DNA of 64,000 bases from an uncultured Rhizobium sp. (GCA_964529555.1 CAZGWV010000001.1:24592-88591); one strand, 5' to 3'; shown: positions 9,285-43,415, counted from the stretch's first letter. Notes: generated by a model not told the origin, from the letters alone. Made by a program: numbers and translations.

Positions 9285-9306
9285 TAACTCATTTCCGGCT
9301 GAACTC

Positions 9307-16813: not shown

Positions 16814-17098
16814 CTAGCTGCGCTTCTCGTAAGCGCGGACAACTTCCTTGCCCGACCCCGTGGCCTTGAACGGCGAGGTCAGCCGACCGTCGAGACGCGC
16901 AACTTCCCCCGTGACCGTGTTGACGACGATCTTGCGGCAGCGCATTTCGTCGCAAACCTCTCTCTCCGCCCAGGGATCGCTGAGCGTGCCTTCCGCAGAG
17001 ATCACGACTTCGCCCGCCTTGCCTGGAGTTCTCTGGGCGAGGGCCGCCGATGAGGCCAAGGCGGCGCAGACCGCCAGCCATGCTATCCTGTCAATCAT
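16814..17098 (-). CDS. Small secreted two-Cys protein, Rhs-associated family (copy A)
   Basis: 94 aa, signal peptide [22 protein letters not shown]. Shares G.VV....G.L..PW....C....C..I..N..TGE(V/I)AR..G..S.F...G.G.EV with ORFs 28080-28409, 36628-36963 and 43110-43415. Sits between the YD/cadherin gene and Rhs A. Confidence 0.7.
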
Positions 17099-17153
17099 GG
17101 CGCACGTCCCCTCCCGTCACGGATTGAGCTGAAAGTTCAGAAGGACCGACGCA

Positions 17154-17681
17154 TCACAGCCACTCATAGCATTCATCCGCAGGCTTGCACAAAAGGAACT
17201 CGATCGTCAGCGTCGCGGAAGATGTCTGATTGGTCGAATCCTTGATGGAGTACGTAAAGTTCTTGACGCCGGGCGTCGCCGTTCCAGACCACAGGAGCGC
17301 ATCCGCGCCACCCACGTTGACGATGGAGAGCCCAGAGCCGCTCACCGACGTTATCGAGAGAGTGTCCGCCGGCAGATCGGGATCGGTGTCGTTGGAAAGG
17401 ACGTAATAATAGGCCGTCACCGGATTTTTGTAGTAGGTGGCGTAATAGTCGTTGTGGGCAGTCGGCGGCGAGCCGCCACCGCCGCCCGCCGAACAGCCCG
17501 ACGCCGCCGAAACGCTCGTCCGGTTGTCGGCGCTGTCATAGTTATAGCAGACAGGCGTGCCCGAACTCGGCGTGACCTTCGTCAACCGCCCCAGCGCGTC
17601 GTAGGAATATGTCTGCGATACCTGCGCGGTCGCGCTTGACGTCAGCAGGGCCATAACAACGGCCACACCAAAGCAACGCAT
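17154..17681 (-). CDS. Secreted YD-repeat + cadherin-like/VCBS-type domain protein, Rhs-associated family (copy A)
   Basis: Tracked ORF trimmed to the ATG at 17681, after GGAGGGGG. Signal peptide MRCFGVAVVMALLTSSATA/Q, two YD repeats (YSYDALGRLTKV, YNYDSADNRT), a Gly linker, a VLSNDTDPDLPADTLSITSV cadherin-like signature, and a C-terminal C-x5-C. Confidence 0.7.
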   Translation of the reverse strand: MRCFGVAVVMALLTSSATAQVSQTYSYDALGRLTKVTPSSGTPVCYNYDSADNRTSVSAASGCSAGGGGGSPPTAHNDYYATYYKNPVTAYYYVLSNDTDPDLPADTLSITSVSGSGLSIVNVGGADALLWSGTATPGVKNFTYSIKDSTNQTSSATLTIEFLLCKPADECYEWL

Positions 17682-17752
17682 GCAGCGGCCCCCTCCCACG
17701 TGCAACAGCATGGGCTGCTGCATCCCTCGATCAGGAGCGTAGGCCGATCCCT

Positions 17753-17780
17753 GCGAGACTCGCAATCGAAAACTTCGCGC
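17753..17780 (-). promoter_or_regulatory. Conserved upstream element of the locus A operon (shared with locus B)
   Basis: On the minus strand this reads GCGCGAAGTTTTCGATTGCGAGTCTCGC, ~75-100 nt upstream of the YD/cadherin ATG. A near-identical CACGCGAAGTTTTTGATTGCGAGTCGCG sits at the equivalent place upstream of locus B. Confidence 0.3.
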
Positions 17781-17947
17781 AGCTGTGGAATTCTTTGTTC
17801 GCTGCTGGCAGGCGCTGGCGCGGCGACATGCACGTCGTTTGCCGTCTCATGAATACGCAGCGGTTGACGATCTCCTCCAGTTTTCCTCGGGCGCTCGTTG
17901 GAAAGAATCTCGGGAAGCAGCCGTCGAATTCGACATTGTGCAGACGG

Positions 17948-18490
17948 TTAGCTTTTGAACATCCATCCTAGGAGAATTGCCAATGCGATGTATGGCCCAA
18001 AGGCCACGCGCGCTCCTCGCATGCTTGTTCCGGACGCTATTGCGCCAATCGCGACGACCAGGAGCGCGCATGCCGACGCGATCAGCGTTAGGTGGGGGAG
18101 CCACTCCCAGCCAAGCCATGCTCCACCAGCTCCCATCAGTTTGGCGTCGCCCTGACCGAGAGCTGGTCGGCCAAGAATGCGCGTAAACAGATGACCGAGT
18201 GCGGTGAACGCTCCGTAGCCCAACGTCGCGCCGATCATTGCGTTCGGTAGCTCCGGCGCTGGCGCGTACGCGGCGCTCATAAGACCGACGATCAGGAGTG
18301 GGATGGTCAACAAGTTGGGCAGACTGAATCGGTCTATGTCGACCATCGTCGTCCACGCCAGCGTTGCTGACAGAAAACACCCAGCCGGCCAGCGCTCCGA
18401 GGGCGTCAACAACACGCACATGCCGAACGCGGCGGCGGCTAGCAATGCAGCCACTACGGCCTTGCCTCTGGGCAGGTAGAGCGCATGCAC
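17948..18490 (-). CDS. gspO: Prepilin peptidase (A24 family, GspO/PilD-like; no methyltransferase-size N-domain)
   Basis: 180 aa polytopic membrane protein with the two aspartate motifs MVDIDRFSLPN and GQGDAKLMGAGGAWLG. Confidence 0.8.
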   Translation of the reverse strand: MHALYLPRGKAVVAALLAAAAFGMCVLLTPSERWPAGCFLSATLAWTTMVDIDRFSLPNLLTIPLLIVGLMSAAYAPAPELPNAMIGATLGYGAFTALGHLFTRILGRPALGQGDAKLMGAGGAWLGWEWLPHLTLIASACALLVVAIGAIASGTSMRGARVAFGPYIALAILLGWMFKS

Positions 18491-18504
18491 GGGCGATTGC
18501 CTCG

Positions 18505-18945
18505 CTACTGCCTGAACATTTCGATGCGGCGTTCGGGAGGTCCTTCAAGCACCACGGCGGCGGCCTCAACCTTCAGCACTTTGCCGGCGGAGGTATCGTC
18601 GCCTTGTTTCACCTGCACCGATTGACCGCCAATCAGGAGGCTTGCCCGCAGCGATCCCCCCATGCGGCTGATGCCCGTCAACCGCACCTCGATCGGTGGC
18701 GGCGGAGGGGCCATCGATGCACTGCGGTCAAACGCGCTACGATCCGATGCAAACGGTGATCGCTCAAGAATCGATGGTCCTGCTTTCGGCTCGGTCGGCG
18801 GCAGTGGAGCAAATTGCGCGCGCAGAATGGCAGGCGGGTTCGCATCGCTCAACGTTACTTCGGGCGGCTCAAGCATCGGCGCCGTTGCCGCGGAGGCGGC
18901 GAGAGCGATCAGCACGATACCGGTGATGCGCAGAAACCCTCTCAT
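18505..18945 (-). CDS. Periplasmic T2SS accessory protein, GspC/GspN/PilP-like
   Basis: 146 aa. N-terminal TM anchor, Pro-rich linker, C-terminal beta-rich segment (VRLTGISRMGGSLRASLLIGGQSVQVKQGDD..GKVLKVEAAAVVLEG) resembling the PilP/GspC HR domain. Assignment rests on position and this pattern only. Confidence 0.35.
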   Translation of the reverse strand: MRGFLRITGIVLIALAASAATAPMLEPPEVTLSDANPPAILRAQFAPLPPTEPKAGPSILERSPFASDRSAFDRSASMAPPPPPIEVRLTGISRMGGSLRASLLIGGQSVQVKQGDDTSAGKVLKVEAAAVVLEGPPERRIEMFRQ

Positions 18946-19484
18946 GGCGATACCTCTACGGGACGCCAGGCGCGTCCGATCTGGGCTTTCACCGAGAGGA
19001 ATATGTCGGGCCGCGGGCCCTGGCCGGCTTCGATTTCCAGGCGCCGCACCATGAGAAACGGGCGCTCGGCGTCAAAACTCGAAAGGAATGCGACCAGCGC
19101 CTGCAGGTCGGCTGTGAACGTAAGGTCAATCCAAACACCCTGGCCGAAGCCGCCAAGATGCTCGGCGGCGAGCGGCTGCGTTGACTGAACGGCGAGACTT
19201 GCGCTGCGGGCCAAACGGTCAACGGCGGCCTGCAGGGCAAGTTGCGCCTCGGCAGTGTCAATGTGCGCCGCTGCGAGGTCGATGGGATTGTAGGCTGCAC
19301 CTGCTGGTGGAGATGACGAGGCGAGCGAGGCATAGCGTGCGAGGCGGTTCTCAGCCTCACTGCGCAGCGCCAGGGCGTCGACAAGCGGATAGCCCAGGGC
19401 CGAGACCGCAGCGCCGAGCCCGACCCCAAGGACTATGAGGGCGGCGAATTTTTGGAGGAGCGGGTGAAGTGTGCGCTGTTTCAT
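18942..19484 (-). CDS. GspM-like T2SS inner-membrane protein
   Basis: Trimmed to the ATG at 19484 (ATGA overlap with the upstream gene). ~180 aa, single N-terminal TM (FAALIVLGVGLGAAVSALGY), periplasmic remainder. Size, topology and position after the gspL-like gene fit GspM. Confidence 0.45.
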   Translation of the reverse strand: MKQRTLHPLLQKFAALIVLGVGLGAAVSALGYPLVDALALRSEAENRLARYASLASSSPPAGAAYNPIDLAAAHIDTAEAQLALQAAVDRLARSASLAVQSTQPLAAEHLGGFGQGVWIDLTFTADLQALVAFLSSFDAERPFLMVRRLEIEAGQGPRPDIFLSVKAQIGRAWRPVEVSP

Positions 19485-20440
19485 GGGGCAACCGTCTTGC
19501 GTTCGCGGGCGATGATCTCGAACGACTGGTAGCTGCCAGATGGTGCGGCATTGAGGGGGCCGGTAAGTTCGATGCTCCAGGCTTTGGCAGCATCGGATAT
19601 CTGCTTGATGGCCGCAGTAGCGTCGCCCGCCTGACCGGAGAGAGTAGTCTCCAGCGGAGTCCAGCGAATTCTCGTCCACCAGGCTGTGTTGGGTGTTGCT
19701 TCATTTAGTATGGCCAAGGTCCGCAGCGCGGTATCGGCGCGGCGGCTCATGAGTCCCCGTTCGACCAGTTGAGCGGAGACGTTGGCGTCGTTGCGCGCAG
19801 CTTCTGCCGCCACGGCGGCGCGGCGCAGAGACCGCTCCTCTGCGGCGAGCCGCTCGGTCTCGGTCTGGATGTGGGCGGTCCAGACCGAGACAGCGATCAT
19901 GGTCGCGACAATGACGCCGAGAATGATGAGCGTGTCTATGAAGAGGTTTCGCCGGGCTTTGTGTTCGGTATTCGGTGACCGTAGCTCTACGTCTTGTGCT
20001 TGCTCGACGACGAATGCGACTGATTGCGCTCCTTTGCGCTGCGCAGCTTGCTCAAGCTCGGTCAATCGATCTTTGCGCGCCATTGCGACGGAGTAAGTCA
20101 GCGATCCATCCGGCGCGCGCGCGGCTGCGCTCGCGACGATGCAGAGCGCCTGCGGGAGCGCTGGCGCAAGGTCCTGAATCTTAAGACCGAGCGCCTGTCG
20201 GTGCGCATCGGCAGCGCCTTTGGGTAGCCGCGCGGTCGCAGCGAACCCGTCAGTCTCGCCAAGGACGACTGTCACCTTGGAGGGAAGGCGCTTTTTGCTC
20301 GATTCGATATCGTCTACGGAAACCATCTTGCGAGCCGGGGAGCCGAACAGGGCGGTGATCTGCGATGTCCACCAGCGGACGGTGCTGGCGATAGGATTGA
20401 GGCGATCAAGGACGCTGGGCTGAAGACGAAGCTCTGTCAT
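19481..20440 (-). CDS. GspL-like T2SS assembly-platform protein
   Basis: ~319 aa from the ATG at 20440 (TAATG overlap with the pseudopilin gene). Cytoplasmic domain, central TM (LFIDTLIILGVIVATMIAVSVW), periplasmic domain, i.e. bitopic GspL/PilMN-like architecture. Confidence 0.45.
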   Translation of the reverse strand: MTELRLQPSVLDRLNPIASTVRWWTSQITALFGSPARKMVSVDDIESSKKRLPSKVTVVLGETDGFAATARLPKGAADAHRQALGLKIQDLAPALPQALCIVASAAARAPDGSLTYSVAMARKDRLTELEQAAQRKGAQSVAFVVEQAQDVELRSPNTEHKARRNLFIDTLIILGVIVATMIAVSVWTAHIQTETERLAAEERSLRRAAVAAEAARNDANVSAQLVERGLMSRRADTALRTLAILNEATPNTAWWTRIRWTPLETTLSGQAGDATAAIKQISDAAKAWSIELTGPLNAAPSGSYQSFEIIARERKTVAP

Positions 20441-20955
20441 TACCGGCACTCCAGCGTCACCGTATCGAACAGGCAATCGAAGGGAAGGTCTCGCCTGGGC
20501 ATCGCCATGGCGAGGGGCGTCTGTAAATTGGGCGCAAGGAGCACGATCAGGCCGCCTGGCCGCTGCTCGAACCTGGACCCCGTCGGGACGTAGATGCTTC
20601 TGTCAAGGCCGGCTGAGCGCCATTCCAGTGCCAGGCCGCTTGCGGAAGGCTCCAGACGAGCGCTCACCTGATCGGAGCCTATCTTTGCCTCGATCTGGTC
20701 AGAAGTCACAACGAGACTGCCGGCGTCCGCGCGTTCGAGCAGCGCCAGTACGCTTCCGATGGATCGGCTCGCGCGAACCTCTGTGACGGCTGTCCGGACA
20801 ACACCTGTCGTTTGACCATAGCGGTGGGTCAGCTCGACCAGGCCGACGATCAAGAGCGAGGCGACGAGAAGCCCCACGACAAGTTCCGTCAACGTGAACC
20901 CCGCTTCTGAATCTATGGCCGCCTTACGGCGCCGGGGCGATGCGATACGCTTCAA
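20440..20955 (-). CDS. Minor pseudopilin (GspJ/GspH-like) with prepilin-type N-terminus
   Basis: 171 aa. Class-III signal ...SEAG/FTLTELVVGLLVASLLIVGLV. Confidence 0.6.
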   Translation of the reverse strand: MKRIASPRRRKAAIDSEAGFTLTELVVGLLVASLLIVGLVELTHRYGQTTGVVRTAVTEVRASRSIGSVLALLERADAGSLVVTSDQIEAKIGSDQVSARLEPSASGLALEWRSAGLDRSIYVPTGSRFEQRPGGLIVLLAPNLQTPLAMAMPRRDLPFDCLFDTVTLECR

Positions 20956-21298
20956 GGCGCGTTACTCCCTTCCGGCCGGCCGCTTGCCAGGCAACTGCGA
21001 TCTCAACCTCAACCAATCCAGGCAATTCGATCTGCTCCTCGCCATAACTCACTGTCCAGGAGAGTTGCCTGTCTGAGCTGGCGCCCTGCCGAGGGGTTAG
21101 AACGATGTCTGGAGCCGCCAGGGCCTCGGCCAGCAAAACCTCGGCTTGACGCAAAGCTTGGGTGCGAACCTCCATCTCGAGTGTGCGTGACCTTGACGAA
21201 GCGAGTATGTTGATGAGCGCCGCAGCTGCGATGGCTGAAAGCGCCAAAGCTGCAATCGCTTCCACCAGACCAAAGCCGTCCTCGCTACTCCCGCGCAT
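20924..21298 (-). CDS. Minor pseudopilin (GspI-like)
   Basis: 124 aa. Prepilin-type N-terminus ...EDG/FGLVEAIAALALSAIAAAAL. The size fits GspI. Confidence 0.6.
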   Translation of the reverse strand: MRGSSEDGFGLVEAIAALALSAIAAAALINILASSRSRTLEMEVRTQALRQAEVLLAEALAAPDIVLTPRQGASSDRQLSWTVSYGEEQIELPGLVEVEIAVAWQAAGRKGVTRLEAYRIAPAP

Positions 21299-22485
21299 CA
21301 GAAGGTTCCCTCGCCGAGTTGGGACAAGCCCGTCAGGAACGCGCTCATAAGCCAGCCGGTAAACCCGCCCATGGTGAGAATCAGGATGGGACCGGCGGCT
21401 GCCGCGGCTCGATCAAGGCGGCGCAGGGCGCGCTCGATAGCGATATTGCCCGCACGCATTAGCATTTCGCCGAGTGCTCCTGATTCCTCGCCAACTCGCG
21501 CGAGACGATGAAGTTCAGGCGAGGCATTGGGGAGCGCGGCGAGCGAGCCCGCGATAGTTCGCCCATCTCGAAGGGCCCGACCGGCGGCTTTGAACCGTCC
21601 CCTCCAAATGATGTTGGGTGCTGAAGATGCGGCAAGATCGATAGCAGTTGCGGCCGGCGCGCCGCCGGAGATCAGCGCGCCGAGCGTGCGGGCAAAGGCC
21701 CCACAATTGATGTCGCGTACAATGCCGCTGAGGAATGGCATGTTGGCCCGTGTGGCTGCTAAGAGTTCACGCAGCGGCGAGCGTCGTGAGGCGACAATCA
21801 GGAGCGCGACCGCAACCGCCCCGCCAGCCAACAAGAGAAGGCCGTCTCGCTGCAAGGTCTCGCCAATTGCGAGGACGAGGGTAAGCCCCTCGGGCGGATT
21901 GGGCGCGTCTTCAAGGAGCGGCGCGATAGCGGGTCCGGCAAAGACGGTGAGCGCGATGATCGCGAATATGGAGAGAACCACCAGAAAGGCGGGATAGGCG
22001 AGGGCGTTACCGATGCGTTGGCCAAATTCTGATTGTCGGCGCAGCAGGTCAGCTGCAAACCGGAGCGAGTCTCCGAGCTTGCCGGATGCCTCGCCGGCGC
22101 GCGCCAGTTCGGAGGCAAAGGCCAGGTCACCGGTGTCCTCCAGCCGGGTTGCGCGCCCGAAATCGGATCCGACGTCAAGCCGTTCGGCCATAAGCCGAGC
22201 GAGCTGAGCCGCCCGCGGCGTGGAGGCGCCGGTTGAGAGGACGTCGAGCGCCCGCCTCAGAGGGACGCCGGCATCGTGCAGAGCAGCCAGATCCGCCAGA
22301 AATATTGCGAGCTCTGGTCGAGGTATACGACGATGCGAGAGGTTTGTTCTGGTCTTGCGGAGCTTGACTACCGTCTCGCCGCGCGCCGCCAAGGTGCGTG
22401 TTGCCTCAGTGATCGTCTCCGCCTCAATGAGACCGGTGCGCGCCTGGCCAGTGGGAAGTAGAGCGTTATACCGGTACATCGCCAT
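21298..22485 (-). CDS. gspF: GspF-family T2SS/T4P platform protein
   Basis: 395 aa. Duplicated GspF-type cytoplasmic domains and three TM segments. Located directly downstream of the GspE ATPase. Confidence 0.9.
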   Translation of the reverse strand: MAMYRYNALLPTGQARTGLIEAETITEATRTLAARGETVVKLRKTRTNLSHRRIPRPELAIFLADLAALHDAGVPLRRALDVLSTGASTPRAAQLARLMAERLDVGSDFGRATRLEDTGDLAFASELARAGEASGKLGDSLRFAADLLRRQSEFGQRIGNALAYPAFLVVLSIFAIIALTVFAGPAIAPLLEDAPNPPEGLTLVLAIGETLQRDGLLLLAGGAVAVALLIVASRRSPLRELLAATRANMPFLSGIVRDINCGAFARTLGALISGGAPAATAIDLAASSAPNIIWRGRFKAAGRALRDGRTIAGSLAALPNASPELHRLARVGEESGALGEMLMRAGNIAIERALRRLDRAAAAAGPILILTMGGFTGWLMSAFLTGLSQLGEGTF

Positions 22486-22488
22486 GGA

Positions 22489-24216
22489 TCAGCCCGCCAT
22501 GGCGCGCAAAACTTCAGCGGAGGTCGTAAGGCCTTGGCGTACTTTAAGGGCGCCATCATCCATCAAGTGTGAAGTGAGGCAGTTCGCCGCCGCTCGGTCG
22601 ACAGGCCCAAGGTCGCGCACCGCGTTGAGAAAGCCCTCCGACGCTTCAAACCCTTCAGCAATCGCGATCCGCCCGAGGAACCCGCTTTGCGTGCAGCGCG
22701 AACATCCGGCCGCATCGAATACGGCGGCGTCACTTGGCAGGCGAAAGGCCGTCTTCTCGGTTTCACTGGGCGTGCGCGGCCGGCGGCAGTGGATGCAAAG
22801 TCGTCGCACCAAGCGTTGCGAGAGTGCTCCGCGGAAGCAGGCGGCAAGCTGAAATGGTTCGACACCCATTTCAAGCAGGCGCGGTACGGCGCGTGGGGCG
22901 TCAATTGCATGAAGCGTTGCAAGGACGAGATGGCCGGTGAGGGCGGCCTGGACCGCTGCCTTCGCTGTCTCACTATCACGAATCTCACCCACCAGGATGA
23001 CGTCTGGGTCTTGCCGCAGGAAGGCGCGGATAGCTGAGGGGAAGGTAACCCCCGCCTTTGGCGCGGTCTGCACCTGGGTCACATGATCGAAGTGAAACTC
23101 GACCGGATCTTCGACAGTGAGCACCTTGCGCGGGCTCGTGCGCATCGCCTCAAGACCTGCGTAGAGTGTTGTCGTCTTGCCCGAACCCGTCGGTCCGGTC
23201 ACAAGAAAGAGGCCATGTGGCCATGCCAGCGCTCGATCAAGCAACAAACGTTCGTTAGGTGAGAATCCGAGCGCATCAAAGCTGAGCTTCACTTCGCTGC
23301 GGTCCAGGATGCGGATCACGGCGGACTCGCCATTGACCGATGGAACAATAGAGACGCGCAGGTCTACGGGGCGGCCGCCCACAACCACGGTTGTACGCCC
23401 ATCCTGCGCGGCGCGGCGATCGCCAAGGTCGAGATCAGCGAGCACTTTGATGCGGGCGATAACGGACGCAGCAGCGGCGAGCGGCTCTTCTGCAATCTTC
23501 TCAAGCACCCCATCAATACGGAATCGCACGGAGAGCGCGTTTGAGCGCGGTTCGATATGAACGTCTGAGGCGCGCCGGACGATGGCTTCGGTCAACCAAC
23601 CAGCGACACGTCGCGCCACCGGAGCGTCGCGATCAAACTCCAAGGCTGCTTCGGCGCGGTCTTCGTCGCGTTCGGCAACTTCTTGCGTCCAGGCTCCGCG
23701 AACGTCTTCGTAGGCTCCCGAGAATAGTCGCCGCTGCTCAGCTGCTCGGGCGATGCTGACAGTAACCGGCCGACCTGTGGCAAAGCGGACGCCACGCACC
23801 GCCTCGTCGTCAAATGGATCAACGAGGCCAAGAAGAACGTTCTGTCCGTCGCCTCGAAAGACCACGCACCGATGCGTGCGCATAAACGCAGGGGAGAGAA
23901 CGCTGGCGATATCCGGATCGACCTCGCCATCCGCCGCCGGCAGGCCAGAGACATACATGAAGGCCGCCTGCAGGGCGTCGTCGCTCACGGATCCAAGCCG
24001 GTTGAGAACTAGCGGCAAGGATTCGCGGTCGATGCCTTGAGCTCGACGCGCTGCGTTCTCGGTGCTTGTGCTCAACCCATCGTTCTCACGCAGCCAGGCA
24101 AGGACCCGTTCGTAGGAAGATGTATCTTCCACGGCATGAGGCGCAGGGTCCGTGACTGGTTCCGGAGTCACTCCGCGAGCAAGCACTTCATCTGGCTGAG
24201 CATCGCGCGGCGCCAT
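22489..24216 (-). CDS. gspE: GspE-family secretion ATPase
   Basis: 575 aa. Walker A VTGPTGSGKTTTLYA, Asp box, Walker B ILVGEIRD, His box ATLHA, and a tetracysteine motif (CIHC...CSRC). Confidence 0.95.
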   Translation of the reverse strand: MAPRDAQPDEVLARGVTPEPVTDPAPHAVEDTSSYERVLAWLRENDGLSTSTENAARRAQGIDRESLPLVLNRLGSVSDDALQAAFMYVSGLPAADGEVDPDIASVLSPAFMRTHRCVVFRGDGQNVLLGLVDPFDDEAVRGVRFATGRPVTVSIARAAEQRRLFSGAYEDVRGAWTQEVAERDEDRAEAALEFDRDAPVARRVAGWLTEAIVRRASDVHIEPRSNALSVRFRIDGVLEKIAEEPLAAAASVIARIKVLADLDLGDRRAAQDGRTTVVVGGRPVDLRVSIVPSVNGESAVIRILDRSEVKLSFDALGFSPNERLLLDRALAWPHGLFLVTGPTGSGKTTTLYAGLEAMRTSPRKVLTVEDPVEFHFDHVTQVQTAPKAGVTFPSAIRAFLRQDPDVILVGEIRDSETAKAAVQAALTGHLVLATLHAIDAPRAVPRLLEMGVEPFQLAACFRGALSQRLVRRLCIHCRRPRTPSETEKTAFRLPSDAAVFDAAGCSRCTQSGFLGRIAIAEGFEASEGFLNAVRDLGPVDRAAANCLTSHLMDDGALKVRQGLTTSAEVLRAMAG

Positions 24217-24218
24217 GG

Positions 24219-33002: not shown

Positions 33003-33007
33003 GCGAC

Positions 33008-33440: not shown

Positions 33441-33563
33441 CTGGAGAGGGTGATGGCCGGCCCCCATCGGCGCGTCCGGTGTCAATGTTAGTGCATTGAG
33501 GCCTCCCATTTCTGCAGACACGATGCGGCGAGCTGGCCAGGCGGGGATGACGATGGCCTCCGG
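33441..33563. mobile_element. IS3-family terminal fragment (IR-like end plus ~110 bp) abutting the orphan rhs of locus B
   Basis: tgatggccggcccccatcggcgcgtccggtgtcaatgttagtgcattgaggcctccc... aligns at ~85% identity with 35650-35760, the end of the IS3-family transposase remnant. Homology stops exactly where rhs homology starts (33564). Confidence 0.55.
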
Positions 33564-35925: not shown

Positions 35926-36031
35926 TGGTAACCGTCCGGTCTGAGCGACCTTACGGTGGCGGGGATAAGGGTCATTCTGGATGGATCGGGGCGGATCGTG
36001 TCCGCTTGTCTATCGTGGACGCGATCCCACC

Positions 36032-36355: not shown

Positions 36356-36360
36356 CGGTT

Positions 36361-36543: not shown

Positions 36544-36627
36544 CGAAGTCAAGTTCGCTACCAGACAGCGCGCCCCGGAAAAAACCCCATAGCCTACCGT
36601 GGCCCAGACGCTTTCGGGAGCAATCAG

Positions 36628-36963: not shown

Positions 36964-36968
36964 GACGC

Positions 36969-37794: not shown

Positions 37795-40700
37795 ATGGGG
37801 CTGCATGCACGAGGCGGGCATTGGCTTCGACGTTTCCGCAAAGTTGTATCTGCAGGAGGCGTGCTCGCAGCCAGCCTTGCCGCCGCTCCGCTTGGGTATG
37901 CGCAGGTGCAGACGGCAACGCCGCCCGTGTTCAGCGCGATCGATCATCTCGGTGTCGATGCGAGTACAGGTCAGTTCCATCTCTCGACCAGTGAAGTCGC
38001 CATCGGGCAGCCCGGTGCAGGCGGGATTGCATTTGGACGTGGCTGGGTCGCGTCAGGTTGGCGTGACTCCCTCGCCGGGACGATCTCCGTTTCGGGGGCG
38101 ATCTATACTGTGAGTTTGGGCGCAAGCGCTGAGACTTTCACGCTCTCCAGCGGAACATACACATCGAATCAGGCAATGGGTTCGACCCTGGCCTACGCAT
38201 CGAGCAAATACAGCTACACGCTGCGAGACGGCACGGTTGCAGAGTTCGACACGGCTACGGCAAGCTGTTCGGGCGTCACCAGCTTCTGGGCCTGCAATGC
38301 GGGCCTGATCACAAAGATGACGCGACCAGATGGCGAGGTCATCACCTGGACGTACTCGGCGGCGAGCGTCGGTGGCCAAAGCGCCATCCGGCCGCAATCG
38401 ATCTCGAACAATCTCAACTATCACATCCACTTCACCTACGCGATCAATGGGCCGAACAATGGCAGCGAGGTTGTCGGCGGCTATCTTGAGCGCATCAAGG
38501 TCACGGGGATCGATCGCTCGATCTACAATTGCTCGAACTCCACATTTATCTGCTCTGACAGCACGGGGGCCAACTGGCCGTATGTCGTTTATGGTGCTGA
38601 GAGCGGAGGAGTTCAGACGGTAACTGACAGGCTCTCGCAGACGACACGGTTTAAAGTCACCAGTGGAAACTTGACGGAAGTCAGATTGCCGACATCGAGT
38701 TCGGTCGCACGCACGTCGATTGCCTACAGCTCAGGGAAAGTCATCCTCGTTTCTACGAACATCGGCGGATGGTTTAGTACTGCCTACACCTACAGCGATG
38801 CTTCCGGCGTTCGTACAACGACAGCGGCACCATATTTCGAGGGTAACGCATCGATTACAAAAACCAATATCGCAAATGGCTGGGTGACCGAACTCTGGGC
38901 TGACGGCGCCGGCACGCGCAGGACGGTCTTGACACGGGACGGCTACGGTCGAGTAACGCGCACAACCCGCGCAGATGGCGACTACACAAATCTGACCTAT
39001 GACGCGCGTGGGAATGTCACACAGATCGTCGAAACGCCCAAGACGGGAAGCGGGCTCTCGAGCATCACGACGACCGCATCTTATCCGGGCAGCTGCTCCA
39101 ACGCCAAGACCTGCAACAAGCCGAACTCGACGACGGATGCGCGAGGCTATCGGACAGATTATACGTATTCTTCGACTCATGGCGGAGTGCTGACGGTCAC
39201 GCTTCCAGCGCCGTCGGGTTCAGCCCCGGTTGGCAGCGGAACGCGGCCGGAGATGCGTTACACCTATGCCGATGCCAGCACCGGCATCTACCGCGTGGAC
39301 ACGACAAAGTCCTGCGCTTCCGGTTCCTCTTGCGCCAACGCTGCAAATGAGACGGTGCAGGCGTTCACCTACGATTCCAAGCGGCGTGTTGTAACGACAA
39401 CCGTTCGCGCAGGGAATTCGTCGGTGATATCGACATCGAGCATCACCTATACTTCGCTGGGCGACATCGCGACTGTCGATGGCCCGCTCAGCGGAACTGC
39501 GGACACCGCGTATCTATACTATGACGATATCCGCAGGCTGCGCGCGAGCGTGACGCCCGACCCGGATGGCGGGGGATCGCTCCAGCATCGTGTGTCACGG
39601 ACGACGTATAACGCTGATGGTTTTCCGACCGTTGTCGAGGTGGGTCATGTATCCTCGCCTTCCAGTTGGGCGTCGATGACCGTTCTCCAGCGTATCGACA
39701 ACACGTATGAGCTCGGCCTTCCAATACCTTTCTCCAAGACCGCCCTGTCATCGGGCGGCACGACCTATGCGGTTCAGCAGTTCAGCATACACGAAAATCT
39801 CTTCGCGCGTTGCACGGCCACGCGCATGAATCCCAGCGAGTTCGCCTCGCTTCCGACCGGCATGTACGCCGCCTGTCAGGCAGACACCGCTGGCTCCTAC
39901 GGATACGATCGCATTACACTCACTGGCTATAACGGATATCGCGAGGGGACGAGCGTTGCCGACGGCGTGATTGGCAGCTTTGGGACGCCGAGGCGGCTGG
40001 TTCAGACTGTCTCCTACGATGCTTCGTCGGGAGAATCCGAATACTTGACCGATGCAGACGGCAACAAAACCAAATACGAGTATGATGGGTTCTCGCGGCT
40101 GGTGAAGACGATCTTCCCCAGCCCGACAACGGCTGGCAACCAGAACGCAGGGGACTATGAGCAGCTCACGTATGACGCCTATGGGCGCCTGACAGCCCGC
40201 CGCGGGCGAGATGGGCAGAGCTTCTCGTTCAGCTACGATAATCTTGGCCGCGTGACCGTGATCGACGCGCCGGGTTCGCAGCCGGACATCACCTACACAT
40301 ACGACAATTTCGGCCGCGTGCTGACGGCGGCCCAGTCCGGGCACACGCTCACCTACGCCTATGACGCCCTCAGCCGCCTGACCAGCGAGACGCAGGGTAG
40401 CCGCACGGTCAGCTACCAGTATGACGCGGCAGGGCGGCGCACGCGGCTGACCTGGCCGGACAGCTTCCATGTGACCTACGAGTACAATGCCGTGGGCGAG
40501 GTGACAGCCATCAAGGAGAATGGAAGCTCAGCGCTTGCGACATTCACCTACGACAATCTTGGCCGTCGCACGTCGCTGGCGCGCGGCAATGGCAGCACGA
40601 CAGGGTATGCGTTCGACGGCGGCTCGCGGCTGATCGATCTTGGGCTCGACCTGGGCGGTTCCTCGCACGATGTGTGGACGGATCTCAGCTACAACCCGGC

Positions 40701-42084
40701 CGGCCAGATCGTCTCGAAGACGATCAACAACACGGGCTACAACTTCACGCTGCCGGCCGCTTATGCCGACGCCTATGCTGATAACGGGCTCAACCAGTAC
40801 ACCTCCGCCGGGGGCGTGGCGCCGAGCTATGACAGTCGCGGCAACACGACGGGCGATGGGACGAAGGCCTACGCGTACGACTACAGCAATCGCCTGACGA
40901 GCGTGAACGCGACGTCGGTGCTCCTGAGCTACGACCCGTCTGGACGGCTGAGGGCGCTTGGCGGATCGGCGGTGGCCGACACGCTGTTCGTCTATGACGG
41001 TGTGGACGTGATCGCGGAATACAATCCGGGCGGCAGCCTCGTCCGCCGCTATGTGCACGGGCCGGGGATGGATGAGCCGCTGGTGTGGTTCGAGGGGGCA
41101 GGGCATTCGGGCTCGGGCACGCCCGACCGGCGTTATCTGTTCGCGGACGAGCGCGGCTCGATCATCGCGGTCGAGGGCGGATCGACGACGAAGAACAGCT
41201 ATGACGAGTATGGCGTTCCGGGGTCAGGTAATGCGGGACGATTCCAGTACACCGGCCAGATGTGGATGCCGGAAGCGGGCCTCTACCACTACAAGGCCCG
41301 CGCGTATAACCCCGAACTCGGCCGGTTCATGCAGCCCGATCCCATCGGCTATGGCGATGGGGTGAATATGTACAACTATGTCGCCGGTGATCCCGTGAAT
41401 TCGCGAGACCCAACGGGCCTCGTGGTCGTCGGGAATAGCGTGATTATTACTGGCGGCGTGGAGGATGGCGGCATTGCGTGCGGAAGAGATAATTCATTTA
41501 ACGAGTGCGAAGCATACCGGCAGTTTCTGCAACAAGGGGTAGAGCCGAGCATCATCTTTCCGAGTGAAATTGGGATGGATCAGGGCATTCTTACCAACCA
41601 GCCCACACCAGCTCCGCGGGGATGGACATGTACTAGTGGCGTGAACAAAAGCGGGTTTCCTAGCCCTACACTAAAGAGCTTGGGTTTCGACAAAGATGGA
41701 ATGAATCCCGGTCAATTCGCTCTGTGGAACCCCCTCGCCGCCTTTGCTGCGTACACAATCGCGCAAGACGCGGACTGGGAGACGCGTGTGTTTCAAGGCT
41801 TCTCGGGCATCCCAGCGCACAACAATGCTGCAGACGCCTTTCATCACGCCTACTGGAGTTATCGCATGCAGCAATTTTTTTGGTTTGATGGCGCCAAAGA
41901 CGTTGGCGATATTTGGGAGCGTTCCGAGCAGGGTATGCAAAACAGTCCTGGTGAACGACTAATGGATCTCTACAATAATATGGTAGGGCGGCAGCAGGCG
42001 AGTTTTGGGCCGACGTTTCCAAATGCATCGTCCGCTGTGCGAGATTTGATTAATAGAGATTGTCTGCGTACGTCGCCCTTCTAG
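37795..42084 (+). CDS. Rhs-family polymorphic toxin C, full length with Sec signal peptide
   Basis: Trimmed to the ATG at 37795, after GGGGGA. ...VVSAGGVLAASLAAAPLGYA/QVQ. ~1429 aa with YD repeats. Core end AGDPVNSRDPTG, then a 221-aa unique tip (41419-42084). Confidence 0.9.
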   Translation: MGLHARGGHWLRRFRKVVSAGGVLAASLAAAPLGYAQVQTATPPVFSAIDHLGVDASTGQFHLSTSEVAIGQPGAGGIAFGRGWVASGWRDSLAGTISVSGAIYTVSLGASAETFTLSSGTYTSNQAMGSTLAYASSKYSYTLRDGTVAEFDTATASCSGVTSFWACNAGLITKMTRPDGEVITWTYSAASVGGQSAIRPQSISNNLNYHIHFTYAINGPNNGSEVVGGYLERIKVTGIDRSIYNCSNSTFICSDSTGANWPYVVYGAESGGVQTVTDRLSQTTRFKVTSGNLTEVRLPTSSSVARTSIAYSSGKVILVSTNIGGWFSTAYTYSDASGVRTTTAAPYFEGNASITKTNIANGWVTELWADGAGTRRTVLTRDGYGRVTRTTRADGDYTNLTYDARGNVTQIVETPKTGSGLSSITTTASYPGSCSNAKTCNKPNSTTDARGYRTDYTYSSTHGGVLTVTLPAPSGSAPVGSGTRPEMRYTYADASTGIYRVDTTKSCASGSSCANAANETVQAFTYDSKRRVVTTTVRAGNSSVISTSSITYTSLGDIATVDGPLSGTADTAYLYYDDIRRLRASVTPDPDGGGSLQHRVSRTTYNADGFPTVVEVGHVSSPSSWASMTVLQRIDNTYELGLPIPFSKTALSSGGTTYAVQQFSIHENLFARCTATRMNPSEFASLPTGMYAACQADTAGSYGYDRITLTGYNGYREGTSVADGVIGSFGTPRRLVQTVSYDASSGESEYLTDADGNKTKYEYDGFSRLVKTIFPSPTTAGNQNAGDYEQLTYDAYGRLTARRGRDGQSFSFSYDNLGRVTVIDAPGSQPDITYTYDNFGRVLTAAQSGHTLTYAYDALSRLTSETQGSRTVSYQYDAAGRRTRLTWPDSFHVTYEYNAVGEVTAIKENGSSALATFTYDNLGRRTSLARGNGSTTGYAFDGGSRLIDLGLDLGGSSHDVWTDLSYNPAGQIVSKTINNTGYNFTLPAAYADAYADNGLNQYTSAGGVAPSYDSRGNTTGDGTKAYAYDYSNRLTSVNATSVLLSYDPSGRLRALGGSAVADTLFVYDGVDVIAEYNPGGSLVRRYVHGPGMDEPLVWFEGAGHSGSGTPDRRYLFADERGSIIAVEGGSTTKNSYDEYGVPGSGNAGRFQYTGQMWMPEAGLYHYKARAYNPELGRFMQPDPIGYGDGVNMYNYVAGDPVNSRDPTGLVVVGNSVIITGGVEDGGIACGRDNSFNECEAYRQFLQQGVEPSIIFPSEIGMDQGILTNQPTPAPRGWTCTSGVNKSGFPSPTLKSLGFDKDGMNPGQFALWNPLAAFAAYTIAQDADWETRVFQGFSGIPAHNNAADAFHHAYWSYRMQQFFWFDGAKDVGDIWERSEQGMQNSPGERLMDLYNNMVGRQQASFGPTFPNASSAVRDLINRDCLRTSPF

Positions 42085-42094
42085 AGGTGATCCA

Positions 42095-42475
42095 ATGAAA
42101 TTGAACAAATTTTGGATAGGGTCAGCGGCGGGGTTTGCTCTCGGTTTGTTATGTTGTTGGGTGACAGTATTTGTAACGGGAATGAATTCCACCGTTGTAA
42201 TATATAATTCGACGTCTGCGCAACTTGAAGAAGTGCGAGTGGGGCTAGATGATGAGGTCGTTTGGAATGGCCTTATCGAAGTTGGTGAGCATATCGACGT
42301 CCATCTCGGGTCGTCTCGTTCGGGCACTCTGTGGATAGAGAATATTGTGAAGTCTGATGTCGATCGTCGCGAATTAGCTTATGTAGCACCAATGATCGGC
42401 TACGATTTTTATGTATCGTTGAATTCAGAGCATGGGGTCACGTTGCAGACATGTCCTAAAGGCTCTCGCGGCTGA
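42095..42475 (+). CDS. Putative immunity protein for Rhs C (membrane-anchored)
   Basis: 126 aa, preceded by GAGGTGA. AT-rich. N-terminal TM (IGSAAGFALGLLCCWVTVFV). Starts 10 nt after the Rhs C stop. Positional inference. Confidence 0.5.
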   Translation: MKLNKFWIGSAAGFALGLLCCWVTVFVTGMNSTVVIYNSTSAQLEEVRVGLDDEVVWNGLIEVGEHIDVHLGSSRSGTLWIENIVKSDVDRRELAYVAPMIGYDFYVSLNSEHGVTLQTCPKGSRG

Positions 42476-42494
42476 TAAGAGACACTGCTCGATA

Positions 42495-42671
42495 ATGAAA
42501 GAGAATTTTATTATATCACAGGGCTTTTTGCTGGCGATTGTTATCGGAGCGCTGAGTGGATTCCTGTTGGTGGTGTTGTCAGCCGTTCCGCAAATTCCTT
42601 CATTTCCAGTCTTTGTCATCATCGTAGCCGCTTTTGTGCTAAGGAAGATATTTTGGAAGGGTGTCACTTGA
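42495..42671 (+). CDS. Small hydrophobic protein (two TM segments), function unknown
   Basis: 58 aa from the internal ATG at 42495 (MKENFIISQGFLLAIVIGALSGFLLVVLSAVPQIPSFPVFVIIVAAFVL...). AT-rich like the neighbouring immunity gene. Weak support. Confidence 0.3.
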   Translation: MKENFIISQGFLLAIVIGALSGFLLVVLSAVPQIPSFPVFVIIVAAFVLRKIFWKGVT

Positions 42672-43109
42672 CTGTATTGGCGCAAACTGAGTGTGTCGGT
42701 CAGATTGTGCCTAATTTGCAGTAGGGCGCGAAACATGAAGTCGGACTCTGTATCGCCTCTCGATTAGTGCGGGCCGGCTGCCTAGTTCAACAAGGATCCG
42801 AAGTGAGCGGACTGGATTCGAAGCGGCGTAAGCGGCACTAACGATCATCCGATAGCCGATTTCCTGGCAGGGCAAGTACAGGTGGATCGTTAGGAGCAGG
42901 CTCGCGCTGCCTGCCATGTGCTGCTCCGCTAGCCAGTCTCTCTCAGCGGGGGCCGGTCACCGCTCGGATACCAACAATGTCTGCTTCACGTGCTCAACGC
43001 AGGCCCGCCGGCGGGCGGGGCTCAGTAGTTTCCCGAGGCTGCTTCCTTCGGGGGGGGCTAGCGGTCTGTCACATGCCGCTTCAACAGGCCTGTCCTTATT
43101 GGTCTCTCA

Positions 43110-43415
43110 TCAATCGTCTTTGAGCCGATTGGCCTTGGCCGTCGCCGTCTCCTTGCGCCAGACTTCCTCGCCGCGACCGCTGCTCCCGAAGTCTGACGCC
43201 CATGTGTTTCCAAGGCGCGCAATCTCGCCGGTTTGGCTGTTGTAGATGATCGGTTCGCAGGCCTGAGGTTGCGTGCAGGCGCGCCCCTCCTTCCACGGAG
43301 CGGCGAGGGCTCCAGTGGATATCATAACAACTTCGCCTGAGTATTCTTTGCCGGTCTGGGCGGTCGCGCCCACAACTGTCGTTAAAGCTATGAGCAGGGT
43401 CAGGATAATGCGCAT
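43110..43415 (-). CDS. Small secreted two-Cys protein, copy D
   Basis: 101 aa. MRIILTLLIALTTVVGATA/Q. Family motif ...GEVVMISTGALAAPWKEGRACTQPQACEPIIYNSQTGEIARLGNTWASDFGSSGRGEEV. Confidence 0.7.
   Translation of the reverse strand: MRIILTLLIALTTVVGATAQTGKEYSGEVVMISTGALAAPWKEGRACTQPQACEPIIYNSQTGEIARLGNTWASDFGSSGRGEEVWRKETATAKANRLKDD

What the first reader, a model, noticed from the sequence alone, without database searches (positions are those of the whole stretch)
16814..43415. Unnamed family of small secreted two-Cys proteins, one copy per Rhs locus
SEEN: four paralogues (16814-17098 minus, 28080-28409 plus, 36628-36963 minus, 43110-43415 minus) of 94-111 aa. Each has a signal peptide and a shared core: G-x-(V/I)V-x4-G-x-(L/I)-x2-PW-x4-5-C-x5-10-C-x2-(I/V)(V/I)-x-(N/H)(T/S)-x-T-x-E(I/V)A(R/Q)-x-G-x4-S-x-F-x3-G-x-G-x-EV. 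Each sits immediately after the YD/cadherin gene and next to a Rhs gene. Sequence divergence between copies is high, but the motif and both cysteines are retained, which suggests selection for function. INFERENCE: a dedicated periplasmic or extracellular partner (chaperone, plug, adaptor for secretion or target binding) of this Rhs class. I cannot place it in a known family from memory.
Basis: seen in the sequence. Interest (0 to 1): 0.7.

Follow-up and report, generated by a model that had tools for sequence, protein, structure and literature searches.

The report
Small helper of secreted Rhs toxins
Four diverged copies of a tiny exported protein with no known relatives sit beside giant Rhs toxin genes that surround a private type II secretion machine on a mobile element; it is probably a dedicated helper for exporting or targeting these toxins, a step that is poorly understood outside type VI secretion.

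Summary
The window has exactly four paralogous genes, at the stated coordinates. Each encodes a 94-111 aa protein with a signal peptide and two invariant cysteines. Pairwise identity is about 35-44%, and the genes are under purifying selection.

The family is a true orphan. It has no Pfam, NCBIfam or PDB sequence match. Two confident AlphaFold models (core pLDDT about 95) find no structural neighbour. It is also rare: 22 clusters among 5.8 billion proteins and about 100 representatives among 1.84 billion.

The four loci surround a complete, divergent type II secretion (T2SS) operon on a conjugative element, and all the Rhs proteins carry Sec signal peptides. The small gene always directly follows a gene for a signal peptide, two YD repeats and a cadherin-like domain, usually within 10 nt. 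Every family member I could place on a long enough contig lies near Rhs and T2SS genes.

Related islands can lack the small gene, for example Asticcacaulis plasmid pASTEX02. It is therefore a lineage-specific accessory, not a universal Rhs partner.

My best guess (about 0.4) is a cognate periplasmic chaperone or adaptor for T2SS export of the YD-adaptor/Rhs cargo. The main rival (about 0.3) is a co-secreted subunit of the toxin complex.

The parts
16814..17098 (-). small two-Cys protein, copy 1 (94 aa; subfamily A)
   Evidence: AF2 model with core pLDDT ~95
28080..28409 (+). small two-Cys protein, copy 2 (109 aa, TTG start; subfamily B)
   Evidence: identical to database protein P0003 apart from the start residue
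36628..36963 (-). small two-Cys protein, copy 3 (111 aa; subfamily C, with extra C-terminal helix)
   Evidence: AF2 model with core pLDDT 94-97
43110..43415 (-). small two-Cys protein, copy 4 (101 aa; subfamily D)
17154..17681 (-). YD/cadherin adaptor-like protein 1: signal peptide, 2 YD repeats, Big_9/cadherin-like domain, C-terminal C-x5-C tail
   Evidence: Pfam RHS_repeat + Big_9/Cadherin; sequence
27646..28083 (+). YD/cadherin gene 2, degraded: YD motifs mutated, internal deletion and frameshift of the Ig-like domain
   Evidence: only a weak Cadherin_4 hit; three-frame reading
36969..37484 (-). YD/cadherin adaptor-like protein 3
43417..43911 (-). YD/cadherin adaptor-like protein 4
12477..16781 (-). 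Rhs1 with Sec signal peptide (...GPAFA|QTDIE), co-linear with YD1 and small1
28620..33002 (+). Rhs2 with Sec signal peptide (...ISALA|QQVS), co-linear with small2; DPxGL core end followed by a variable C-terminus
37795..42084 (+). Rhs3 with Sec signal peptide, divergent from YD3/small3; DUF6973 C-terminal domain
44202..46715 (+). Rhs4, 3'-truncated, divergent from YD4/small4; the end coordinate is approximate
17847..27332 (-). Divergent T2SS operon: GspD secretin, 235-aa unknown, GspG, GspE, GspF, two pseudopilins, 331-aa unknown, GspM, weakly PilP-like 146-aa protein, 240-aa unknown. It runs directly into YD1, small1 and Rhs1
   Evidence: Pfam, NCBIfam; same operon next to small-family genes elsewhere
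11999..12535 (-). candidate immunity gene of Rhs1 (178 aa, no family)
   Evidence: position directly after the Rhs C-terminus; no Pfam hit; role inferred
32981..33400 (+). candidate immunity gene of Rhs2 (139 aa)
   Evidence: role inferred
42095..42475 (+). candidate immunity gene of Rhs3 (126 aa, hydrophobic N-terminus)
   Evidence: role inferred
33496..35534 (+). orphan Rhs C-terminal module plus candidate immunity gene, downstream of locus 2
9814..11940 (-). orphan Rhs C-terminal fragment downstream of locus 1

Best explanation
The small protein is a Sec-exported accessory factor of a mobile 'T2SS-Rhs' toxin island. It is a single ~65-residue all-beta domain. A long beta2-beta3 hairpin is most likely stapled by the two invariant cysteines, and the hairpin tip varies in length and sequence.

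**Shown by the data.**
- It is a real, conserved, exported orphan family.
- Its gene is almost always positioned for translational coupling to the upstream gene, which encodes a signal peptide, two YD repeats and a variable adhesion-type domain.
- It travels with Sec-signal Rhs toxins and with a dedicated T2SS operon.
- Each Rhs unit carries its own diverged copy.

**Inferred mechanism.** After Sec export, the small protein binds its cognate cargo in the periplasm. The cargo is the YD/cadherin adaptor and, through it or directly, the Rhs N-terminal region. The variable hairpin face would recognise this cargo. The invariant beta4-beta6 face (T-x-E-I-A-R ... S-x-F-x2-T-G-x-G-x-E-V-x-R) would contact a constant partner. 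The small protein would thus keep the ~150-kDa cargo secretion-competent and hand it to the island's T2SS.

In function this resembles a private chaperone or adaptor, like the Lif foldases for T2SS lipases or the Eag/Tap adaptors for T6SS Rhs toxins. It is not homologous to any of them.
For: **Real orphan family.**
- Four paralogues, with 18 invariant columns.
- dN/dS is 0.13-0.41.
- Only 22 clusters in 5.8 billion proteins and about 100 representatives in 1.84 billion.
- No family, PDB or fold match.
- Two independent AF2 models give the same six-strand topology at pLDDT ~95.

**Context.**
- A YD/cadherin-type gene lies directly upstream in 12 of the 13 loci where the upstream gene is visible. 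The gap is 10 nt or less, or the genes overlap, in 11 of 12.
- Rhs genes are adjacent in the window (four loci), L002, L007, L009, L013, L015 and L017.
- T2SS genes lie within the fetched flanks in the window, L002, L007, L008, L013, L015, L017 and L021. In L010 a prepilin peptidase follows the gene.
- In three independent contigs the order is YD, small, GspD secretin.
- The Rhs proteins have Sec signal peptides, and I found no T6SS gene among the window ORFs I scanned.

**Cognate specificity.**
- There is one diverged copy per unit but only one T2SS.
- Loci 3, M1 and M2 group together for all three proteins.

**Periplasmic site.**
- About 10 distant members have an N-terminal TM-like segment without an obvious A-x-A cleavage site, followed by a 60-90-residue linker and then the domain. 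This suggests tethering to the inner membrane.

**Two-faced conservation.**
- The Cys-bounded hairpin is the most variable segment and carries indels. Residues 60-88 are nearly invariant.

**Precedent.**
- The Rhs bacteriocin Bcn-A needs the T2SS secretin and small accessory ORFs (PMC7259588).
- gspG-linked Rhs families have been noted in Xanthomonas and Ralstonia (bioRxiv 10.1101/2025.05.08.652813).
Against: - No interaction has been shown or even predicted.
- Related islands work, or at least persist, without the protein. L019 and L020 have YD/cadherin followed by a split Rhs, with no small gene and no T2SS within ~10 kb. Asticcacaulis excentricus pASTEX02 has a T2SS and four YD/Rhs units but no family member in the 65 kb scanned. 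It therefore cannot be a general requirement for T2SS export of Rhs.
- It diverges faster than both putative partners in close pairs. For M1 versus M2 the identities are small 54%, YD 82% and Rhs N-terminus 85%. For locus 1 versus the fifth copy they are small 62% and YD C-terminus 90%. That pattern fits an exposed, conflict-driven surface at least as well as a chaperone.
- Signal-anchor versus cleaved signal peptide in the distant members is my reading of the sequences, not a prediction from a dedicated tool.
Confidence: 0.4

Rival explanations
1. Co-secreted structural subunit. The small protein leaves the cell with the YD/cadherin protein and the Rhs toxin as part of an extracellular toxin complex. 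It would bridge or cap the YD-Rhs junction, or contribute a variable disulfide-stapled loop to target recognition. This would resemble a phage tail-fibre gene followed by its cognate chaperone/adhesin gene (my analogy, from general knowledge).
For: - Tight translational coupling to the gene for the variable adhesion-type protein (Big_9/cadherin, Calx-beta or RTX variants).
- Faster divergence than its neighbours.
- The most variable and indel-prone segment is the Cys-bounded hairpin tip, as expected for an exposed recognition loop.
- A disulfide suits an extracellular life.
- Bcn-A activity is found in the supernatant and needs accessory ORFs.
Against: - Distant members appear anchored to the inner membrane by an N-terminal TM segment plus a long linker. 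That is hard to reconcile with release.
- The family co-occurs with T2SS genes in every long context, while two YD/Rhs loci without it show no T2SS nearby. This hints at an export-side role.
- No structural resemblance to YD shells or to any adhesin.
Confidence: 0.3
2. T2SS assembly factor. The small protein would act as a pilotin-like or GspC/PilP-like partner of the secretin and would not be cargo-specific.
For: - In L002, L008 and L017 the gene lies directly upstream of gspD.
- It has a nearly invariant face that could bind a constant machine component.
- The five-repeat member P0054 lies next to a prepilin peptidase gene.
Against: - There are four to five diverged copies per genome for one T2SS, each attached to a YD/Rhs unit and some far from the secretin gene.
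- The window copies have no lipobox, which is the defining feature of pilotins.
- The operon already encodes a weakly PilP-like 146-aa protein.
- No fold match to pilotins, PilP or the GspC HR domain.
- A related T2SS in pASTEX02 lacks the protein.
Confidence: 0.06
3. Periplasmic self-protection or masking factor. It would bind the YD/cadherin adhesin or the Rhs during transit, so that the producer's own envelope is not engaged. This would be an immunity-like role distinct from the C-terminal toxin immunity.
For: - Exported, cognate and fast-evolving.
- Very weak Foldseek hits to the periplasmic immunity protein Tsi1 (E ~2, TM 0.28). These are not significant.
Against: - Separate candidate immunity genes already follow each Rhs C-terminus.
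- There is no evidence that the YD or Rhs N-terminal parts are harmful to the producer.
- The structural hits are at noise level.
Confidence: 0.08
4. Chance ORFs or decaying remnants with no function.
For: The island is partly degraded: YD2, Rhs4 and IS debris.
Against: - About 120 intact homologues exist.
- Cysteines and motif are invariant.
- dN/dS is below 0.45.
- The AF2 fold is confident.
- Synteny is conserved.
Confidence: 0.01

Closest known systems
Bcn-A bacteriocin locus of Xanthomonas perforans (PMC7259588)
   Same: - A ~1,400-aa Rhs-family toxin found in the supernatant.
- Activity is lost in a T2SS secretin (xpsD) mutant.
- Small accessory ORFs are required, and there is a separate immunity gene.
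   Different: - The accessory ORFs (124, 100 and 290 aa) lie downstream of the Rhs gene, not upstream after a YD/cadherin gene.
- The locus uses the housekeeping Xps system rather than an island-encoded T2SS.
- Homology of those ORFs to this family could not be tested, because I had no sequences. None of the close family members comes from a named Xanthomonas record.
gspG-linked Rhs families XRhs F VIII and RRhs F II (bioRxiv 10.1101/2025.05.08.652813)
   Same: Rhs toxin families genetically linked to a T2SS gene and predicted to use the T2SS instead of the T6SS.
   Different: - Different taxa: Xanthomonas and Ralstonia, versus Caulobacterales-like environmental bacteria here.
- That text mentions no YD/cadherin gene, signal peptide or small accessory protein.
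- The link there is to gspG alone, not to a full private operon.
Asticcacaulis excentricus CB 48 plasmid pASTEX02 (NC_014819.1), T2SS/Rhs island
   Same: - A conjugative replicon carrying a T2SS operon (GspD 35%, GspE 44% identical to the window's).
- The operon is flanked by four units of a YD-repeat protein plus a Sec-type Rhs (Rhs 32-39% identical).
   Different: - No member of the small family in the 65 kb scanned (HMM E > 0.2).
- Two YD genes are followed directly by the Rhs gene. The other two are followed by IS elements at the position where the small gene would sit.
T6SS Rhs chaperones and adaptors (EagR/DUF1795, DUF4123/Tap, DUF2169)
   Same: In concept: a small cognate accessory gene encoded just upstream of an Rhs effector, needed to load it onto its secretion machine (established knowledge).
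   Different: - Those proteins are cytoplasmic, lack signal peptides and serve the T6SS.
- No Pfam hit to any of them.
- This protein is exported, contains a probable disulfide and is linked to a T2SS.
Lif (lipase-specific foldase), private periplasmic chaperone of a T2SS substrate
   Same: A functional analogy only: a dedicated factor acting in the periplasm, encoded beside one T2SS substrate. Lif is tethered to the inner membrane, as some distant family members seem to be.
   Different: Lif is a large alpha-helical protein (established knowledge). This domain is a 65-residue all-beta fold. There is no sequence or fold similarity.
T2SS/T3SS/T4P pilotins (GspS/PulS, AspS, PilF and others)
   Same: A small exported protein, sometimes encoded directly before the secretin gene.
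   Different: - Pilotins are outer-membrane lipoproteins, one per machine.
- This protein has an SPase-I site, no lipobox, and several diverged copies per genome.

Membership tests
Any curated protein family (Pfam-A, NCBIfam) | Significant HMM match | tested here: not met
   No Pfam family at E <= 1 for the four copies and only noise at E <= 10 for relatives. NCBIfam gave noise only. One relative (P0007) carries a precomputed hit to PF28279, a model absent from the local Pfam copy. That hit is unresolved.
Any solved structure or fold | Sequence-profile or Foldseek match | tested here: not met
   - PDB profile searches: best E 0.12-0.95.
- Foldseek against PDB with two models: best E 0.12-0.78, TM < 0.3.
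- Foldseek against BFVD: best E 0.19.
Rhs polymorphic toxin system (applies to the locus, not the small protein) | Large protein with RHS/YD repeats, a core ending in the DPxGL motif, and a variable C-terminal domain | tested here: met
   - RHS_repeat hits for the Rhs ORFs.
- Matches to solved Rhs cores at E down to 3.5e-37.
- '...[28 protein letters not shown]' followed by divergent tails; DUF6973 in Rhs3.
Rhs polymorphic toxin system | Cognate immunity gene after the toxin domain; orphan C-terminal modules | tested here: inconclusive
   Small family-less ORFs follow each Rhs, and two orphan Rhs C-terminal modules are present. The immunity function is inferred from position only.
Type II secretion system (applies to the neighbouring operon) | GspD secretin, GspE ATPase, GspF platform, GspG major pseudopilin, minor pseudopilins, GspL/M | tested here: met
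   - Pfam hits to Secretin, T2SSE, T2SSF, T2SSG, N_methyl (two proteins) and T2SSM_b.
- NCBIfam: GspG scores above its cutoff. GspD (328 vs 351), GspE and GspM (59.6 vs 60) score just below theirs.
- GspC, GspK, GspL and a prepilin peptidase were not identified in the window.
T2SS-dependent Rhs toxins (Bcn-A type) | The Rhs has a Sec signal peptide and is exported through a T2SS secretin | not testable with these tools
   Signal peptides are visible in the sequences, and the genetic linkage to a T2SS is strong. Export itself needs an experiment.
Pilotins (GspS/AspS class) | Lipobox cysteine (outer-membrane lipoprotein); one per secretin | tested here: not met
   The window copies have A-x-A|Q/R sites and no L-x-x-C lipobox. 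There are four to five copies per genome.
T6SS effector chaperones/adaptors (DUF1795/Eag, DUF4123, DUF2169) | Pfam domain match; cytoplasmic; next to VgrG/PAAR | tested here: not met
   No Pfam hit. A signal peptide is present. No T6SS gene was found among the window ORFs I scanned.
YD/Rhs repeat proteins | YD repeat motif in the small protein itself | tested here: not met
   No RHS_repeat hit and no Foldseek hit to Rhs, Tc or teneurin shells.

The most novel reading that the evidence does not exclude
The small protein and the YD/cadherin protein would be the two cargo-side components of a previously undescribed, horizontally mobile toxin-delivery module. The module would comprise a private T2SS that exports whole ~150-kDa Rhs cocoons. 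The orphan two-Cys domain would act as the cognate coupling factor: its variable disulfide-stapled hairpin would read the cargo and its invariant face the machine. It would thereby decide which Rhs unit the secretin accepts. That would make it the T2SS counterpart of the T6SS Eag/Tap adaptors, built on a new fold.
Probability: 0.3. Interest if true: 0.75.

Novelty: new variant of a known kind. Interest (0 to 1): 0.58.

Why it matters
How Rhs toxins that lack T6SS signals leave Gram-negative cells and reach their targets is largely unknown. The evidence so far is one secretin-mutant experiment (Bcn-A) and a genomic association with gspG.

This island offers a compact and explicit parts list:
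- Sec-signal Rhs toxins;
- a YD-repeat protein with swappable adhesion-type domains;
- an orphan disulfide-stapled beta domain;
- a private T2SS, all carried on a conjugative element.

If the small protein is the coupling or targeting factor, three things follow:
- It gives a handle on T2SS substrate recognition, a long-standing open problem, using a very large cargo.
- It defines a new protein fold and family.
- It explains how such toxin batteries can spread as self-sufficient cargo.

If it proves dispensable, as its absence from pASTEX02 allows, it is a lineage-specific add-on of modest interest.

Tried and rejected
**Searches that found nothing.**
- Pfam, NCBIfam, PDB sequence and profile searches, and Foldseek (PDB twice, BFVD) on two confident models gave nothing significant.
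- tblastn and megablast against PLSDB plasmids with the small protein and with the T2SS region gave no match.

**Searches with low yield.**
- Pattern-based scans found only the MAG GCA_041166025.1 (two loci) in the genome collection and one 1.9-kb contig in the metagenome collection.
- A third homologue search with the 102-sequence profile was limited by the word index and added little.

**Attempts that failed or were uninformative.**
No interaction prediction exists.
- Sigma-70 promoter and terminator scans around all four loci gave counts at or below the shuffled expectation.
- dN/dS among the four window paralogues is mostly saturated (dS > 1.6 or undefined), so I used only closer pairs.

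**Hits and ideas rejected.**
- Two large hits in the representative search (P0058, 4,132 aa; P0122, 1,081 aa) are summed weak matches to repetitive proteins, not relatives.
- I considered that the small domain is a detached YD hairpin sheet or plug. There is no YD motif and no similarity to Rhs shells.
- I considered that it is the T2SS pilotin. It has no lipobox and is multi-copy.

Full report
**1. The observation**

They align end to end, at 35-37% identity to copy 1. There are 18 invariant columns: both cysteines, P-W, T-x-E-x-A, S-x-F, G-x-G-x-E-V-x-R.

tblastn of all family members against the window finds exactly these four places (E 1e-9 to 1e-73) and no others. A six-frame HMM scan agrees.

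Each copy starts with a basic n-region, a hydrophobic stretch and an A-x-A|Q/R site, and none has a lipobox cysteine. They are therefore predicted Sec/SPase-I substrates; I read this from the sequences, not from a dedicated predictor.

**2. A real gene family, and an orphan**

A profile of the four copies found only 22 clusters among 5.8 billion proteins. One of them is a fifth paralogue (P0018) on the same 153.6-kb contig, outside the window.

An exhaustive HMMER search of 1.84 billion representatives found 104 hits. Two of these (P0058, P0122) are artefacts of repetitive proteins.

The sequences fall into four subfamilies, each matching one window copy. The paralogues therefore predate the divergence of several organisms.

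Where synonymous sites are not saturated, dN/dS is 0.13-0.41.

No Pfam, NCBIfam or PDB-sequence match exists.

Two AlphaFold2 runs, with different paralogues as the query and alignments of 22 and 63 sequences, give the same topology:
- a short beta1;
- a long beta2-beta3 hairpin;
- three short strands, beta4 to beta6;
- in subfamilies B to D, a C-terminal helix.

Domain pLDDT is 94-97. The two cysteines lie in opposite strands of the long hairpin near its tip, so a stapling disulfide is the natural reading. This is an inference, because the tool does not return coordinates.

Foldseek finds no neighbour in PDB or BFVD (best E 0.12, TM < 0.3).

Column entropy splits the domain into two parts. 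The Cys-bounded hairpin is variable and prone to indels (residues 44-59 of copy 1). The C-terminal half is nearly invariant (N60, T63, E65, I66, A67, R68, S75, F77, T80, G81, G83, E85, V86, R88).

**3. What surrounds it in the window**

*The upstream gene.* In all four loci the upstream gene encodes a signal peptide, two YD repeats, a Big_9/cadherin-like domain and a C-x2-5-C tail. The gap to the small gene is 55, -4, 5 and 1 nt.

*The Rhs proteins.* They are ~1,400-aa Rhs proteins with clear Sec signal peptides and a shared ~330-residue N-terminal domain that has no family match.

*Two layouts occur.*
- Loci 1 and 2: YD, small, Rhs, immunity candidate, all on one strand.
- Loci 3 and 4: small and YD on one strand, Rhs and immunity candidate transcribed divergently.

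It encodes GspD, a 235-aa unknown, GspG, GspE, GspF, two pseudopilins, a 331-aa unknown, GspM, a weakly PilP-like 146-aa protein and a 240-aa unknown. It runs straight into YD1, small1 and Rhs1, and it is divergent from locus 2.

The whole region is cargo of a conjugative element: VirB4, VirB11, VirD4, ParB and ArdC are present. No T6SS gene turned up among the window ORFs I scanned.

*The island is partly decayed.*
- YD2 has mutated YD motifs and an internal deletion with a frameshift.
- Rhs4 is truncated at about 46.7 kb, against an ImuB-like fragment.
- IS debris follows small3.
- Two orphan Rhs C-terminal modules are present.

**4. Context elsewhere**

| Locus (member) | Gene order |
|---|---|
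| L002, MAG GCA_041166025.1 (P0017) | Rhs divergent from: YD, small, GspD, full T2SS operon |
| L007, same MAG | end of a T2SS operon, then Rhs divergent from: YD, small |
| L017 (P0019) | Rhs divergent from: Big_9, small, GspD, ... |
| L008 (P0025) | Big_9, small, GspD |
| L015 (P0021) | Big_9, small, Rhs, 100-aa ORF, GspD, ... |
| L009 (P0023, two domains) | YD+RTX protein, small, Rhs |
| L012 (P0088) | cadherin/Big_9, small, then the contig ends |
| L021 (P0098) | T2SS divergent from: 2x Big_9, small, 1,188-aa protein |
| L013 (P0110) | small, 1,145-aa protein, 1,192-aa Rhs, with gspG at the contig edge |
| L010 (P0054, five repeats) | small, prepilin peptidase |

So wherever a contig is long enough, a family member sits with T2SS genes, and in all but L021 an Rhs gene is also visible. 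It is almost always directly after a cadherin-type gene.

The reverse does not hold:
- Homologues of the Rhs N-terminal domain in L019 and L020 follow a YD/cadherin gene directly. They have no small gene and no T2SS within about 10 kb.
- The conjugative plasmid pASTEX02 of the cultured Asticcacaulis excentricus CB 48 carries a related T2SS flanked by four YD/Rhs units. No family member is found in the 65 kb scanned.

The family is therefore an accessory of one lineage of such islands, not a universal requirement. The nearest named relatives are MAGs from Hyphomonadaceae, Caulobacteraceae and 'Pseudomonadota'. This points to freshwater Alphaproteobacteria.

**5. Co-evolution and rate**

Loci 3, M1 and M2 cluster together for the small protein, the YD protein and the Rhs N-terminus, so the three genes are inherited as a module.

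In close pairs, however, the small protein diverges fastest:

| Pair | Small | YD | Rhs N-terminus |
|---|---|---|---|
| M1 vs M2 | 54% | 82% | 85% |
| Locus 1 vs the fifth copy | 62% | 90% (C-terminal 78 aa) | not available |

**6. Mechanism**

*Shown.* This is an exported orphan beta domain with two invariant cysteines. It is encoded as the cognate, probably translationally coupled, downstream partner of a YD/adhesion-domain protein. It sits inside islands that combine Sec-signal Rhs toxins with a private T2SS.

*Inferred, best guess (about 0.4).* It is a periplasmic private chaperone or adaptor. Its variable hairpin recognises the cognate YD/Rhs cargo, and its invariant face recognises a constant partner. 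It thereby licenses export through the island's T2SS. Support comes from four points:
- the one-way association with T2SS genes;
- its position directly before gspD in three contigs;
- one copy per cargo unit rather than one per machine;
- about ten distant members that look tethered to the inner membrane by a TM segment and a long linker.

*Main rival (about 0.3).* It is co-secreted as a subunit or recognition element of the extracellular toxin complex. The fast divergence and the variable disulfide-bounded loop favour this view.

*Less likely.*
- A pilotin-like role (about 0.06), argued against by the copy number, the missing lipobox and pASTEX02.
- A self-masking or immunity-like role (about 0.08).

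**7. Relation to what is known**

T2SS-dependent Rhs toxins are not new:
- Bcn-A of X. perforans loses activity in an xpsD mutant and needs small accessory ORFs (PMC7259588).
- A 2025 preprint links large Xanthomonas and Ralstonia Rhs families to gspG.

I found no paper describing a private T2SS operon flanked by several Rhs units, the adaptor-like gene with a signal peptide, two YD repeats and a variable domain, or this small family.

I therefore rate it as a new variant of a known kind of system, containing a protein family and fold with no known relative.

**8. Verdict**

The link to Rhs is right, and 'secretion adaptor' remains viable. But the decisive context (T2SS, YD partner, conjugative element) was missed, and the protein is not universal for this Rhs class.
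- Interest is moderate to high, because the system makes export of a very large T2SS cargo experimentally approachable.

Noticed in passing
window 17847-27332 (-): Complete but divergent T2SS operon. GspG scores above its NCBIfam cutoff, while GspD, GspE and GspM score just below theirs. It includes three family-less conserved proteins (235, 331 and 240 aa) and a weakly PilP-like 146-aa protein. No GspC, GspK or prepilin peptidase was recognised. The same operon recurs next to family members in other contigs.
   Followed up: partly
window 561-7231 (-), 53479-55407 (+), 61073-61981 (+): Conjugative-element genes are present: VirB4-like, VirB11-like and VirD4/TraG coupling protein, plus ParB and ArdC. 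The T2SS/Rhs island therefore looks like cargo of an ICE or plasmid. Related loci are also next to Trb/VirB genes (L019), or lie on a conjugative plasmid (pASTEX02).
   Followed up: partly
window 27646-28083 (+): The YD/cadherin gene of locus 2 is degraded. Its YD motifs are mutated (YGALVRP, YNHD). The last ~35 residues of the Ig-like domain are deleted, and the usual C-x-x-C tail is readable only in another frame. Small2 and Rhs2 look intact.
   Followed up: yes
window 44202-47135: Rhs4 loses homology at about 46.7 kb. There it abuts, on the opposite strand, an N-terminal fragment of an ImuB-like (IMS family) gene. Both appear to be truncated remnants of a rearrangement.
   Followed up: partly
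window 35596-36355: IS3-type debris (an rve_3 fragment on the minus strand, HTH_Tnp_1 on the plus strand) lies directly downstream of small3. In other genomes with the divergent layout, this position holds the secretin gene. The fifth copy (L004) and two units of pASTEX02 also have IS elements at the equivalent position.
   Followed up: partly
window 9814-11940 (-) and 33496-35534 (+): Orphan Rhs C-terminal modules, the second with a candidate immunity gene, lie downstream of loci 1 and 2. This is the classic arrangement for toxin-tip replacement by recombination.
   Followed up: no
window 47964-52070 (+) and 55474-59502 (-): Two very large STAND/NACHT-like NTPase genes, one with an N-terminal HTH domain, sit between the Rhs island and the ParB/ArdC genes. 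They may be defence or regulatory cargo.
   Followed up: no
all small, YD and Rhs genes of the window; L002, L007: All three exported partners have signal-peptide sites of the form A-x-A|Q (R in small2). Nearly all the mature proteins would therefore start with glutamine and could form pyroglutamate. The YD proteins also end in a conserved C-x2-5-C tail.
   Followed up: no
L019 10001-14505; L020 10001-13134; L013 1383-8391; L024 (pASTEX02) 9043-13541: In several relatives the Rhs is split into an N-terminal ~500-730-aa ORF and a separate shell ORF. In L013 and L021 a ~1,150-aa protein with a weak transglutaminase-like region precedes the Rhs. It is unclear whether these are genuine two-gene toxins or frameshifts.
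   Followed up: no
L004 1-572 vs window 16822-17391: The fifth paralogous unit of the same genome has a YD C-terminus 90% identical to YD1, but a small protein only 62% identical to small1. The small gene either evolves much faster than its neighbour or lies at a recombination boundary.
   Followed up: partly
L023-L025 (NC_014819.1, Asticcacaulis excentricus CB 48 pASTEX02): A cultured strain carries a T2SS operon flanked by four YD/Rhs units on a MOBF conjugative plasmid, with no member of the small family. It would be a ready experimental host for testing T2SS export of Rhs, and for adding the small gene back.
   Followed up: partly
P0007 (relative): One JGI relative carries a precomputed hit to PF28279, a Pfam model newer than the local library. 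None of the other 21 relatives does. I could not find out what that model is.
   Followed up: no
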